A stretch of DNA of 64,000 nt, taken from assembly GCF_041248615.1 (NCBI RefSeq), contig NZ_CP158426.1, one strand, 5' to 3'. The stretch comes from Escherichia coli (GTDB taxonomy: Bacteria > Pseudomonadota > Gammaproteobacteria > Enterobacterales > Enterobacteriaceae). Below are positions 27,001 to 30,000 of the stretch, piece after piece. Numbering within the stretch: position 1 is the stretch's first letter; every line of letters begins with the position of its first letter. Made by a program: the position numbers.

Positions 27001-30000
27001 ATGAAAATGAGCGTGCTTATCGCAAACATCTCAATGCCGCCCCATACAAAGCATTCGCTGCTCGTGCAGCTGACATTATTGACAGGAAGAAGAAAATTAC
27101 CCTGGAGCCACAGTTTCTGGGCGACAAACACATCATACCGAATGAACGAACTATCAATAATCTGGTGATCGTCGAAGTAAAGCCTGAATTTCAGAGCGAA
27201 TTTAGAAACATCGTCCTTCCTGAAATGGTCGAGTCGCTCAAAGTAGAGAAAGGCGTGTTAGCCATGTATGCCGGTACAGATTCAGAGACTCCAAAACGCT
27301 GGTATTTCTATGAGATTTACGCCAGTGAGGAGGATTATCAACTGCACCGACAAACGCTGCACTTCCTGGATTACCTCAGGCAAACGGCGCATATGAGCGC
27401 CAGGAAGGACGCAATCCCGGTAAAACCGGTATTTCTTCGTAACAAAGGCGGAATCAAACAGGAGCCGCAACGTTGACCAGTAAGGATTAACATGAAAAGC
27501 GTACTTGCAGCAGCGGCTATGTCGCTTGTTATTTCTGATTTTGCCAATGCTGAGGAAACAAGAGGTAAAGCTATGATGAAAATAGAACCGTCAGCGATTT
27601 CGGAAGCTGATATTCGTTCCGTCTCACCGGCTCTCGCGCGCTTTGGTCGCGAAGCTATTACTGAAGATCTGTGGACACGCGACGCCCTCTCACCGAGGGA
27701 TCGTAGTGTGGTGACCGTCGCCATGCTGATTGCCCGCAACCAGCCTGCCGAGCTTAAGCACTATATTGACGTCGCTCTCGATAGCGGCGTGACGCCAGCG
27801 GAATTATCAGAAATCATTACCCATCTGGCGTTCTACTCAGGTTGGCCAAATGCAATGTCAGCCGTCAGCGTGACCAAAGCAGTATTTGAAACTCGTGGCG
27901 TCACGGCAGATGCACTTCCTGAAGCTTCTCCGGACCTGCTTCCTCTCAATCAGGAAGCAGAAAAGCAGCGTTCAGAGACAGTGGAAAAAAATGTTGGCCC
28001 AATATCTCCAGGCCTGGTTAAATTCACTGCTGATCCACTCTTCCTGGATCTCTGGCAAAGACCCGCGCTGAAACCCCGCGACAGAAGCCTGATTACGGTC
28101 AGCGCCTTAATCGCATCCGGACAGAGCGCGCAGATTGGCTATCACCTCAATAGAGCAATGGATAATGGACTTTCTGTTGAGGAAGCTGGTGAGATCGTTA
28201 CCCAGGCCGCCTTCTATGCTGGCTGGCCAAACGCATTTACCGCTGCTCCGGTTGTGGGAGAGGTGCTAAACAATCGATCATCGAGTAAAAGGTAACATTA
28301 CTGAACACTAAAACCTGACGCACATCACAAAATTAGAACGATCAGTTCATGAACCAACAGACGTGACATCGAGTGATTTATGGACAGCGTTTAACACAGT
28401 TATGAACCAAAACTGAGTTCATAACTGTGAGTTTGAATCGCCATTTGATTAATATCCATTTAAAACAGTTTGTTATACTGTTTCTGGTGCTGTCGTAAAT
28501 TATGTATATTCCTCAAACCCAGAATAGTTAAATGGAATTTGAGTGATGCGAAGCGATTTTCCAGTCGTCGTTATTACTTCAGGGTTCCAGAACATAAAGC
28601 CTCTCCTCTTTCATAATTGGCCTGTGCATACCGGATATAGGCTGGCAGGTTTGCCGTTTGCCGCATCTTCCCTGCGTTGAAGAGTCAGGCTGGCAAACCA
28701 CACACCCTCTTTCCATCAACACTTCAGACAGCTTGCGGGAATGAGTTCACTCCGGTATCAGAAATGGCTACGCCTCAATGAAGCCAGGCGACTGATGCTG
28801 AATGAACATTACGATGTCACCACTGCAGCCTATGCTGTCGGTTACGAAAGCTTATCCCATTTCAGTCGGGAATATTCGCGGATGTTTGGAGAGTCACCTA
28901 AGAGAGATATTACCAGGTTAAGAAAGTCTGTCGGTCAGCTTTAATAAACCCTGCACTTATCTGTTTAGAGCAATTCCGTGTTAGTTACACTAGGCAAACA
29001 TTAACCATAGCTAATGTTTTATAGCCATATAAGCCATTGGTCGCTCTTGACCTTTCCTGACACTTCCCTTGTTCGCAATAATATTCTGTTTAGTCGCTGT
29101 TTATAAATATCATGCATAATGAAATCGTCATGTTATTTAGCGACATAAAATGTTTTTGCAAATACTCTCTACAACAAGTGCTGCAATAAACTTGTTGTGA
29201 TTAGGTGTCCTTGTAATTTAAAGATATTATCGTTCTTCGTGAAATGTAATAACCCTGGAAACTATATTCTCAGGGCAACAACCAATTAAGAATGATTCTT
29301 GTTTTATAAGCAATAACAGAATGACTTAATTGTTAACTCTCTTTATTCAGCTACTTAAATATAAATTTTGGAGAATTATGAAACTCAAACATGTCGGTAT
29401 GATTGTCGTTTCTGTGTTGGCGATGTCGTCTGCTGCGGTAAGCGCAGCCGAGGGAGATGAATCAGTAACGACCACTGTTAATGGCGGTGTTATTCATTTT
29501 AAAGGTGAAGTGGTAAATGCCGCTTGTGCGATTGATTCAGAATCAATGAACCAAACGGTTGAGCTGGGTCAGGTCCGTTCTTCTCGTCTGGCTAAAGCGG
29601 GTGACCTCAGCTCCGCCGTTGGCTTCAATATCAAGCTGAATGATTGTGATACCAATGTTTCCAGTAATGCAGCTGTTGCATTCCTGGGTACTACTGTCAC
29701 CAGTAATGACGATACCTTAGCGCTGCAGAGTTCAGCGGCTGGCTCTGCCCAAAATGTCGGTATTCAAATTTTGGACCGTACGGGGGAGGTATTAATACTT
29801 GATGGTGCCACTTTTAGCGCTAAAACCGACTTGATTGATGGCACGAATATACTGCCATTCCAGGCTCGTTATATTGCTCTCGGGCAGTCAGTAGCTGGTA
29901 CTGCAAACGCTGATGCGACCTTCAAAGTTCAATATCTATAATTCAATCTTAAGATGGCTATACGTCATCTGAAATTGAAACAGGGTGTGTGTTGCATGGC

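What the first reader, a model, noticed from the sequence alone, without database searches (positions are those of the whole stretch)
28345..28429. Cluster of palindromes sharing a GTTCAT(G/A)AAC core between the CMD gene and the AraC remnant
A perfect 10-bp palindrome GTTCATGAAC (28345-28354) is followed by a perfect 13-bp inverted repeat CACAGTTATGAAC-N9-GTTCATAACTGTG (28395-28429). Both contain ATGAAC/GTTCAT half-sites. They could be operator sites for a regulator, a bidirectional terminator separating the redox cluster from the fimbrial operon, or the scar of a past rearrangement.
Basis: seen in the sequence. Interest (0 to 1): 0.3.

Follow-up and report, generated by a model that had tools for sequence, protein, structure and literature searches.

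The report
Recognition motifs at a mobile island's end
The two palindromes are conserved motifs inside the roughly 250-bp right end of a GInt-type mobile genomic island inserted downstream of hipA in E. coli; they are most likely docking sites for the island's recombination proteins, not a terminator or an operator for the neighbouring genes.

Summary
Both palindromes are at the stated coordinates. The 13-bp inverted repeat is unique in the window (0 of 100 shuffles produced one). A 10-bp palindrome on its own is at chance level.

Compared with K-12, the window carries a 7.7-kb insertion (20839-28533) between hipA and the yneL AraC remnant. Its last ~250 bp (28286-28533), which hold both palindromes, have 71-79% identical counterparts. 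These lie on Klebsiella, Salmonella, Enterobacter and Chimaeribacter plasmids and in E. coli strains SEV1 and D2 at the same chromosomal site. Each copy sits at the right border of an island with different cargo, and homology always stops at AGTTAAAT.

Intact relatives begin with two tyrosine-recombinase genes, a large hypothetical gene and a small gene. [quoted passage not shown] TTCATGAAC and the repeat arms are the most conserved internal blocks of the end. GTTCAT-type motifs recur at matching positions in both ends of relatives whose ginB-like (second recombinase) protein is only 29-37% identical. I found no covariation, U-tract, promoter or Rfam match.

Best reading: cis-acting binding sites for the recombination machinery. 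Binding is inferred, not shown.

The parts
20831..20838 (.). Left attachment core (attL), TGTTAAAT. The last bases are shared with the empty K-12 site. This is part of the target ...GTGCGCATAATGTATATTATGTTAAAT.
   Evidence: K-12 homology ends at 20838. The same TTATGTTAAAT precedes the left end of every relative, on E. coli, Enterobacter, Pseudomonas and Acinetobacter replicons.
20839..20904 (+). Remnant of the island's left end (66 bp). It holds the terminal repeat GTGGTGGGTTTG (20839-20850) and a GTTCAT motif at 20858-20863, 20 bp in from the core. In intact relatives the first recombinase gene (ginA-like) follows; here it is gone.
   Evidence: 84-90% identical to the left ends of L010, L015 and L016, which continue into the recombinase genes. 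tblastn with the four gin-like proteins finds nothing in the window.
20905..28285 (.). Cargo of the island: a LysR regulator (21135-22034, minus strand) and redox genes, ending with the CMD-family gene (27492-28295, plus strand).
   Evidence: Annotation of the 100% identical record NZ_OW967178.1. Absent from K-12. The same cargo, at ~92% identity, is present in Enterobacter sichuanensis with a different flank.
28286..28533 (.). Conserved AT-rich right (3') end of the island, 34% G+C over its last 250 bp. Homology with some lineages starts earlier, at 28221-28229, inside the last codons of the CMD gene.
   Evidence: Full-length homologues at 71-79% identity lie next to unrelated cargo. All stop at ...CCCAGAATAGTTAAAT. 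G+C content.
28343..28357 (.). Motif copy 1, CAGTTCATGAACCAA, containing the 10-bp palindrome GTTCATGAAC (28345-28354).
   Evidence: TTCATGAAC is invariant in 11 right ends from four lineages. The same AGTTCATGAAC(C) appears in right ends that cannot otherwise be aligned: an IncC plasmid (L018 15231, 15293) and an Acinetobacter plasmid (L021, ~113 bp from the end).
28395..28429 (.). Motif copies 2 and 3: a perfect 13-bp inverted repeat, CACAGTTATGAAC-N9-GTTCATAACTGTG.
   Evidence: The inner 8 bp of each arm (TTATGAAC / GTTCATAA) are invariant in all four lineages, 10 of 13 pairs never vary, and there are 0 compensatory pairs. Hairpin potential as single-stranded DNA is kept in all four lineages.
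28500..28507 (.). Degenerate motif copy TTATGTAT, ~33 bp from the end. It sits where distant relatives have TTATGAAC.
   Evidence: L018, L020 and the L011 flank have TTATGAAC 26-33 bp from their ends. This assignment is an inference from position only.
28514..28533 (.). Terminal repeat CAAACCCAGAAT (28514-28525) plus the right core AGTTAAAT (28526-28533). Joined to the left end, this would give CAAACCCAGAAT-AGTTAAAT-(A/G)TGGTGGGTTTG, a 12-bp imperfect inverted repeat (10/12 against the ATGG form of relatives SEV1, D2 and the plasmids; 9/12 against the window's own GTGG) around an 8-bp core.
   Evidence: Read directly from the sequence. This is the boundary of homology in every relative. A circular junction has not been observed; the joined form is an inference.
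28534..28539 (.). Hexamer GGAATT just outside the right core. It varies among E. coli lineages and may be an integration or excision footprint.
   Evidence: K-12, SEV1 and D2 have CATGTC. The empty site in DS566 has TTAATT. Not tested further.

Best explanation
The palindromes are cis-acting recognition motifs in the right arm (attR side) of a GInt-type site-specific integrative island. GInts (the Tn6571/Tn6488 group of the Tn554 family) are built as ginABCD operon, then cargo, then a short AT-rich 3' end.

Shown here:
- The island is inserted at TTATGTTAAAT, 100 bp downstream of hipA.
- Both of its ends are homologous to the ends of intact islands that carry two tyrosine-recombinase genes, a large hypothetical gene and a small gene.
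- This copy has lost those genes.
- The palindromes are the best-conserved internal blocks of the right end.
- GTTCAT-type motifs recur at similar distances from the termini in both ends, even in relatives whose ginB-like (second recombinase) protein is only 29-37% identical.

Inferred, not shown: the motifs are bound by element-encoded proteins. Candidates are the long N-terminal regions of the GinA- and GinB-like recombinases, the non-catalytic GinC-like protein, or the small GinD-like protein. Binding would assemble the two ends into a recombination complex, as arm-type sites do for phage lambda integrase. In this strain the sites are relics that could act only if gin functions were supplied in trans.
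For: Insertion relative to K-12 with boundaries 20838/20839 and 28533/28534.

The right end is homologous over its full length (71-79% identity) to sequences on 40+ plasmids and in E. coli SEV1 and D2 at the same site. The neighbouring cargo differs each time: Hachiman, Avs1a, restriction enzyme plus TIGR02391, or redox genes. Homology stops exactly at AGTTAAAT and the flanks beyond are unrelated.

Intact relatives carry a 507-aa and a 555-aa recombinase, an 845-aa hypothetical protein and a 167-aa protein at the left end. Both recombinases give integrase hits (PHROG integrase 3.5e-9; NCBIfam integrase_1 2.5e-24).

The published GInt definition matches this layout (PMC5385486).

TTCATGAAC and the repeat arms are invariant across four lineages, while the flanking DNA varies.

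A predictive scan for TTCATRA clusters in five loci found them only in right ends. In the 46-kb IncC locus L018 the only cluster is 15152-15372, directly before AGTTAAAT at 15399. That boundary is confirmed by the shared right flank in L020.

GTTCAT/ATGAAC occurs 2-5 times per 250-bp right end, against a background of 0.46-0.9 per kb.

Left ends carry a copy 19-23 bp from the core in all lineages, and further copies near +97 and +130 in both SEV1 and P. aeruginosa.

The block is single-copy per genome.
Against: No binding or recombination experiment exists for this family.

The GInt authors reported finding no common feature in 3' ends (PMC5385486). The motif may therefore be specific to the clade that targets TTATGTTAAAT.

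The 13-N9-13 inverted repeat itself occurs only in the closer lineages. Distant relatives have single or palindromic copies instead. The spacer is 10 nt in strain D2, which is awkward for a rigid dimer bound to duplex DNA.

Homology of the gin-like proteins to Bardaji's reference GInts was not tested directly.

The P. aeruginosa right end holds only two hexamer copies.
Confidence: 0.7

Rival explanations
1. The 13-bp inverted repeat works as a folded single strand. It could be a DNA hairpin in a strand-biased, copy-out type intermediate, or a signal for priming the second strand. It could also be an RNA hairpin. In this reading it is not a duplex binding site.
For: Strong hairpin potential as single-stranded DNA in all four lineages: -13.1, -8.9, -11.7 and -10.1 kcal/mol, with z-scores down to -4.7.

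In the Klebsiella-plasmid lineage the outer 5 bp are replaced by a different complementary 5-bp pair in a register shifted by 2 nt.

D2 tolerates one extra nucleotide in the loop.

The Chimaeribacter change gives G-T on the plus strand only.

The related SE elements (strand-biased circularizing integrative elements) show strand-biased recombination between their two ends, and some GInts leave no empty site after that recombination (PMC10214605).
Against: No in-register compensatory substitution; 10 of 13 pairs never vary.

The loop sequence is conserved.

Distant relatives lack the repeat.

Idola et al. concluded that the SE intermediates are double-stranded circles.

No Rfam match and no promoter.

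The 10-bp palindrome cannot fold.
Confidence: 0.12
2. The palindromes are operators for an element-encoded helix-turn-helix repressor. The candidate is the conserved RstR/Xre-like 110-aa protein next to the gin module. It would control a promoter in the right end that drives cargo or, after circularisation, the gin operon.
For: Palindromes suit dimeric HTH proteins.

An RstR-like HTH gene is conserved in both close and 36%-identity relatives.

The SEV1-type right end has an inward promoter-like site, TTGAGG-18-TATAAT, facing minus-strand cargo.

Bardaji et al. detected transcription entering ginA from outside the element.
Against: No motif copy lies in the HTH gene's own intergenic regions.

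No promoter-like site was found in the window-type or IncC-type right ends.

Motif copies also occur in the left end at fixed distances from the core, and as non-palindromic copies in P. aeruginosa.

The motifs are conserved whichever way the adjacent cargo is oriented.
Confidence: 0.1
3. The inverted repeat is an intrinsic (possibly bidirectional) terminator that insulates the CMD and redox genes from the AraC remnant and fimbrial operon.
For: It lies 100 bp downstream of the CMD stop codon. It forms a 13-bp stem within a 181-nt RNA fold of -36.7 kcal/mol, z = -2.3.
Against: No T run after the stem on either strand (AGTTTGAATC on plus; TTAAACGCTG on minus).

The stem is AT-rich and the loop is 9 nt.

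The scan found no terminator there.

The same block lies upstream of minus-strand cargo genes in other islands.

Loop and arm sequences are conserved without covariation.
Confidence: 0.03
4. The palindromes have no present function. They are conserved only because the copies share recent common ancestry, or they are chance symmetry in AT-rich DNA.
For: A 10-bp palindrome is at chance frequency. The island here has no recombinase genes, so nothing in the window can use the sites.
Against: Lineages at 71-79% overall identity keep these blocks invariant while the flanks diverge.

The same motif recurs in ends that cannot be aligned, from elements with 29-37% identical recombinases.

The right end is 98.8% identical between E. 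coli and E. sichuanensis, while the adjoining cargo is ~92% identical.
Confidence: 0.05

Closest known systems
[quoted passage not shown] Bardaji et al. 2017, PMC5385486.
   Same: Three-part layout in the intact relatives: a left-end operon of two recombinases, a large hypothetical gene and a small gene; then variable cargo; then a short AT-rich 3' end. Insertion is site-specific and flanked by short imperfect direct repeats. Cargo includes defence and redox genes. Hochhauser et al. list hipA/ydeT as E. coli integration hotspot #20.
   Different: The window copy lacks ginABCD entirely. The attachment site here is TTATGTTAAAT, not any of the sites listed for the Pseudomonas GInts. Bardaji et al. 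found no common feature in 3' ends, whereas this clade has a clear repeated motif. Direct protein homology to their reference GInts was not tested.
Arm-type integrase binding sites of the phage lambda attP (P and P' arms). This comparison rests on established knowledge, not on a tool result.
   Same: Several copies of a short motif, distinct from the crossover core, are spread over ~100-250 bp on both sides of the core in both orientations. In lambda these sites assemble the recombination complex.
   Different: The motif here is partly palindromic, the binding protein is unknown, and four element proteins are needed rather than Int plus Xis. No sequence similarity.
loxP / FRT-type sites: 13-bp inverted repeats around an 8-bp spacer (established knowledge).
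   Same: The geometry of the second element, 13-bp perfect arms around a 9-nt spacer, resembles a tyrosine-recombinase core site.
   Different: The crossover does not occur here. The island boundary is 104 bp further right, at AGTTAAAT. The spacer is 9-10 nt, and distant relatives lack this repeat.
SE elements (strand-biased circularizing integrative elements). Idola et al. 2023, PMC10214605.
   Same: Four left-end genes including two tyrosine recombinases; imperfect terminal inverted repeats; target specificity; 6-bp footprints next to the ends.
   Different: The SE gene order is intA-tfp-intB-srap, with the non-catalytic protein second. The relatives here have the two recombinases first. An SE-type quartet sits elsewhere on plasmid L018.
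Rho-independent terminator
   Same: A stem-loop downstream of a gene.
   Different: No U-tract, an AT-rich stem, and a conserved loop.

Membership tests
GInt / Tn6571-type integrative island | ginABCD operon (three integrase-like genes plus a small gene) at the 5' end | tested here: not met
   tblastn with the four gin-like proteins finds nothing in the 64-kb window. The window keeps only 66 bp of the left end. Relatives with homologous ends do have the operon: L010 (truncated after the second gene by IS1), L015, L016 and L019. The window island is therefore a gin-less derivative, not an autonomous GInt.
GInt / Tn6571-type integrative island | Short AT-rich 3' end following variable cargo | tested here: met
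   The last 250 bp (28284-28533), which contain the conserved end 28286-28533, are 34% G+C. The end is conserved next to at least five unrelated cargo sets.
GInt / Tn6571-type integrative island | Site-specific insertion flanked by short imperfect direct repeats (attL/attR) | tested here: met
   TGTTAAAT at 20831-38 and AGTTAAAT at 28526-33. The same core bounds relatives at other sites and in other genera. The target consensus is (G/T)CG(C/T)ATAA-N6-7-TTATGTTAAAT.
GInt / Tn6571-type integrative island | Gin proteins homologous to the reference GInts of Bardaji et al.; GinA and GinB with catalytic residues, GinC without | not tested
   Only indirect evidence. The first two proteins give integrase hits and the third has no recognisable domain. 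The second protein matches recombinases in similar gene sets on P. aeruginosa and A. baumannii plasmids. Reference sequences could not be retrieved, and catalytic residues were not mapped.
GInt / Tn6571-type integrative island | Excision as a circular molecule and re-integration, dependent on all four gin genes | not testable with these tools
   Needs PCR of the circular junction and genetic assays.
Arm-type recombinase binding sites | A repeated motif, distinct from the core, present in both arms at conserved positions | tested here: met
Arm-type recombinase binding sites | Bound by a DNA-binding domain of the recombinase or an accessory protein | not testable with these tools
   Needs a gel-shift or footprinting experiment.
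Intrinsic terminator | G+C-rich stem followed directly by a T/U run | tested here: not met
   The scan is negative for 28296-28533 on both strands. The tails are AGTTTGAATC and TTAAACGCTG.
Structured RNA / known RNA family | Rfam match or covariation that supports the helix | tested here: not met
   Best Rfam hits have E > 3, far below the gathering scores. 0 of 13 pairs show changes on both sides.
Dispersed repeat (REP / ERIC / MITE-like) | Many copies per genome | tested here: not met
   Median of 1 and maximum of 2 places per genome among 557 E. coli genomes with a match. No other copy of the arm in the window.
SE (strand-biased circularizing integrative element) | Gene order intA-tfp-intB-srap | tested here: not met
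   In the relatives both recombinases come first and the large hypothetical gene is third. Definition taken from PMC10214605.

The most novel reading that the evidence does not exclude
The GTTCATGAAC-type motif array, together with the 13-bp hairpin in this subfamily, is the self-recognition signal of GInt ends that the original GInt study could not find. If so, gin-less islands with intact ends, such as this one (present in ~8% of complete E. coli genomes), are non-autonomous elements that an intact GInt elsewhere in the cell could still move in trans. The hairpin might act in a folded-strand step, as proposed for the related SE elements.
Probability: 0.2. Interest if true: 0.65.

Novelty: new member of a known kind. 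Interest (0 to 1): 0.4.

Why it matters
GInts move large blocks of defence, resistance and metabolic genes. How their ends are recognised is not known: the founding paper states that no common feature was found in the 3' end. This analysis supplies three things that can be tested directly:
- A target consensus, ...CG(C/T)ATAA-N6-7-TTATGTTAAAT.
- Terminal inverted repeats around an 8-bp core.
- A repeated GTTCAT(G/A)A motif at matching positions in both ends, shared by elements in E. coli, Klebsiella, Acinetobacter and Pseudomonas.

It also explains an E. coli integration hotspot (hipA/ydeT, hotspot #20). It shows that the redox gene cluster present in about 8% of complete E. coli genomes arrived as cargo of such an element. 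For the annotation of this window, it removes a supposed regulator or terminator of the fimbrial and redox genes.

Tried and rejected
- Rfam search of 28000-28800 at permissive E-values: only noise.
- Promoter and terminator scans of the window, SEV1-type and IncC-type right ends: nothing consistent.
- Covariation test of the 13-bp helix: none.
- Search for other copies of the arm or palindrome in the window: none beyond chance.
- Exact-pattern scan of one genome per species with GTTATGAACCAAAANNNAGTTCATAA: only 4 loci. The pattern was too strict; it misses the D2 type.
- Pfam on the recombinases at default thresholds: no hit. The hits at E ~0.01-0.04 are below threshold.
- PDB sequence search with the two recombinases: nothing.
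- Looking up protein and replicon accessions in the supplements of Idola et al.: no occurrences.
- Bardaji et al. supplement: no enterobacterial or Acinetobacter GInts are listed, and the att sites given differ.
- Fetching the Hochhauser GInt of ETEC H10407 by its IMG coordinates: the coordinates do not correspond to the RefSeq record, and ordinary chromosome came back.
- HTH-operator idea: no motif copies in the HTH gene's own intergenic regions.
- Resemblances to CRP, LexA or IHF sites were considered by eye and did not fit.
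Full report
**Observation.** GTTCATGAAC lies at 28345-28354. The perfect inverted repeat CACAGTTATGAAC-N9-GTTCATAACTGTG lies at 28395-28429. As bare symmetry, the 10-bp palindrome is ordinary, with 54 such palindromes in the window against 63.6 +/- 7.9 in shuffles. The 13-bp repeat is the only one in 64 kb, and none arose in 100 shuffles. GTTCATRA occurs seven times in the window, four of them within 80 bp here. Read as motif copies, there are three instances of CAGTT(C)ATGAAC: two direct (28343, 28397) and one inverted (28417-28429).

**Where it lies.** The window is E. coli and is 100% identical to NZ_OW967178.1. The gene order is: hipA; a LysR gene; a cluster of redox genes ending with a carboxymuconolactone-decarboxylase-family (CMD) gene (27492-28295); an AraC-type remnant (yneL, 28687-28944); and an intact F9/Fml-type fimbrial operon. 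Alignment with K-12 gives three collinear blocks:
- The K-12 hipBA region matches the window up to 20838.
- The next K-12 bases match 28527 onward.
- K-12 further lacks 29200-32480.

The window therefore carries a 7.7-kb insertion (20839-28533) relative to K-12. It is bounded by TGTTAAAT on the left and AGTTAAAT on the right. The palindromes lie 104-188 bp inside the right boundary.

**The palindromes belong to a conserved, portable end.** The non-coding stretch 28296-28530 matches, over its whole length at 71-79% identity, sequences on about 40 plasmids. The hosts are Klebsiella, Salmonella, Enterobacter, Raoultella and Chimaeribacter. It also matches some E. coli chromosomes. Genes to the left of these copies are unrelated to the window's cargo:
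- restriction enzyme plus a TIGR02391 protein (L007);
- Hachiman (L008);
- Avs1a (L009);
- in E. coli SEV1 and D2, at the very same hipA/yneL site, other cargo again.

In an 11-sequence alignment every copy ends at ...CCCAGAATAGTTAAAT, and the following bases are unrelated. The first 66 bp of the window insertion (20839-20904) likewise match the left ends of these islands.

**What kind of element.** In the intact relatives the left end continues into four genes: a 507-aa protein, a 555-aa protein, an 845-aa hypothetical protein and a 167-aa protein. These are followed by a small HTH gene, another hypothetical gene and then the cargo. The first two are divergent tyrosine recombinases:
- PHROG integrase 3.5e-9 for the first;
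- NCBIfam integrase_1 2.5e-24 for the second;
- Pfam Phage_integrase below threshold for both.

This is the organisation Bardaji et al. defined for GInts: the ginABCD operon, cargo, a short AT-rich 3' end, site-specific insertion with imperfect flanking repeats, and excision as a circle (PMC5385486). It is not the SE order intA-tfp-intB-srap (PMC10214605). Hochhauser et al. list hipA/ydeT as integration hotspot #20, occupied in 62 of 783 genomes, and describe GInts as carriers of defence genes in E. coli (PMC10121019).

The window itself has no gin genes, so it holds a gin-less derivative. The same gin-less left junction occurs in 455 of 5,426 complete E. coli genomes. I could not obtain Bardaji's reference proteins, so direct homology to them is untested.

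**Ends and target.** Joining the window-family right and left ends gives CAAACCCAGAAT-AGTTAAAT-ATGGTGGGTTTG. This is a 12-bp imperfect inverted repeat (10 of 12) around an 8-bp core, the usual shape of a tyrosine-recombinase core site. The joined form is an inference; no junction was observed. The DNA to the left of every insertion is similar:
- GTGCGCATAATGTATATTATGTTAAAT (E. coli chromosome);
- GTGCGCATAATCATTGTTATGTTAAAT and GTGCGTATAACGAGGATTATGTTAAAT (plasmids);
- TTTCGTATAAGAAATTTTATGTTAAA(T) (IncC and P. aeruginosa plasmids);
- TTTCGTATAATAGAGATTATGTTAAAT (A. baumannii plasmid).

**Conservation of the palindromes.** Across four lineages (window type, Klebsiella-plasmid/SEV1 type, Chimaeribacter, D2) mean column identity is 84%. 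Three blocks are essentially invariant: TTCATGAAC, C.CAGTTATGAAC...AGTTCATAA.TG, and the terminal 36 bp. The helix shows no compensatory change: 10 of 13 pairs never vary, one shows a G-U, and the outer pairs are simply broken in some lineages. Conservation is therefore of sequence, which fits a protein-binding site.

**A predictive test on distant relatives.** Elements whose second recombinase is only 29-37% identical have right ends that do not align with the window's, except at motif instances.
- Scanning 46 kb of the IncC plasmid locus L018 for TTCATRA clusters found a single region, 15152-15372. It lies directly before AGTTAAAT at 15399 and contains AATTCATGAATT, GGTTCATGAACA, AGTTCATGAAGC and TTTATGAAC. 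That boundary is confirmed because a different element in P. aeruginosa (L020) ends at the same flank.
- The A. baumannii element has CTAAGTTCATGAACCAAAT about 113 bp from its end.
- The P. aeruginosa element has CTATGAAC and TTATGAAC at about -95 and -31.
- Left ends carry a copy 19-23 bp from the core in every lineage. Further copies lie near +97 and +130 in both SEV1 and P. aeruginosa.

The hexamer occurs 2-5 times per 250-bp right end, against 0.46-0.9 per kb in the surrounding DNA. The 10-bp palindrome is thus the family-wide motif. The 13-N9-13 repeat is a subfamily arrangement of two inverted variant copies.

**Mechanism.** The best-supported reading is that these are cis-acting sites where element-encoded proteins bind to bring the two ends together for recombination at AGTTAAAT. 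This is comparable to arm-type sites in lambda (established knowledge, not a tool result). Candidate binders are:
- the ~230-residue regions preceding the catalytic domains of the two recombinases;
- the GinC-like protein, which Idola et al. describe as having a core-binding fold without catalytic residues;
- the GinD-like protein.

None of this binding is shown. Bardaji et al. state that they found no common feature in the 3' end that could serve self-recognition. Their minimal construct simply included the last 481 nt.

**Rivals.**
- Terminator: excluded for practical purposes. There is no T run on either strand, the scan is negative, the loop is conserved, and the same block lies upstream of minus-strand cargo elsewhere.
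- Known or structured RNA: no Rfam match, no promoter, no covariation.
- Operator for the conserved RstR-like HTH protein: possible, but no motif copy lies in that gene's own intergenic regions. The motif also occupies fixed positions in the left end.
- Folded-strand role for the repeat: it keeps some support. All four lineages retain a stable single-stranded DNA hairpin (-8.9 to -13.1 kcal/mol). In the plasmid lineage the outer stem is rebuilt from different bases in a register shifted by 2 nt. D2 has one extra loop base. The distant relatives, however, lack the repeat.
- Dispersed repeat family: excluded, with a median of one place per genome.

**Other points.**
- The right end is 98.8% identical between this E. 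coli and Enterobacter sichuanensis, while the adjoining cargo is about 92% identical.
- E. cloacae carries a 1.3-kb mini-element consisting of a left end, a truncated transporter gene, a CMD fragment and a right end. It is inserted into the right end of another GInt.
- The hexamer just outside the right core differs among E. coli lineages: CATGTC, TTAATT or GGAATT. This would fit the footprints described for this class of element, but I did not test it.

**Verdict.** The interpretation changes from local gene regulation to the recognition arm of a known kind of mobile island, here in a copy that lacks its recombinases. The repeated end motif and the target consensus appear not to have been described in the papers I could read. 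That gives the finding moderate interest for people who work on mobile elements.

Noticed in passing
window 29200-32480: K-12 lacks this segment: the fimbrial major subunit, the chaperone and the N-terminal half of the usher. The window has an intact F9/Fml-type (ydeQRST) fimbrial operon, where K-12 has only the ydeT pseudogene.
   Followed up: partly
window 28534-28539; L006 3008-3013; L002 ~4995-5000: The six bases directly after the right core GTTAAAT vary among E. coli lineages: GGAATT here, TTAATT in an empty site, and CATGTC in K-12, SEV1 and D2. They may be integration or excision footprints.
   Followed up: partly
L011 (E. cloacae chromosome) 4458-5793, reverse strand: A 1.3-kb gin-less mini-element (left end, truncated MFS gene, CMD 3' fragment, right end), flanked by AGTTAAAT. 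It is inserted into the right end of a second, IncC-type GInt, giving a tandem arrangement.
   Followed up: partly
L012 (Enterobacter sichuanensis) 23-4683: The same redox cargo as window 24443-28533 at ~92% identity, but the terminal 333 bp are 98.8% identical. The flank after GTTAAAT differs.
   Followed up: no
L003 (plasmid pOkiPb01712_2) 3001-3051: Only the last 51 bp of a GInt right end survive here, abutting an IS3-family element.
   Followed up: no
L010 (E. coli SEV1) 362-2636: ISKpn21, with its DUF6904 gene, is inserted a few bases before the attL core of the island at the hipA site.
   Followed up: no
L018 (IncC plasmid pEC-13-22-NDM-1) 39935-45998, minus strand: A second multi-recombinase set in the SE order (integrase, hypothetical, integrase, small protein) lies on the same plasmid as a GInt-type element.
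   Followed up: no
window 28221-28295: The last ~70 bp of the CMD gene are retained next to the right end in islands with other cargo (D2, Chimaeribacter, E. cloacae). This suggests cargo replacement with breakpoints inside an ancestral CMD gene.
   Followed up: partly
window 28640-28700: Compared with other redox-island strains, the AraC (yneL) remnant upstream region lacks 8-bp and 12-bp stretches.
   Followed up: no
L010 9192-9221, minus strand: The SEV1/Klebsiella-type right end has an inward-facing promoter-like site (TTGAGG-18-TATAAT) pointing at minus-strand defence cargo. The -10 element is not conserved in the window type.
   Followed up: partly
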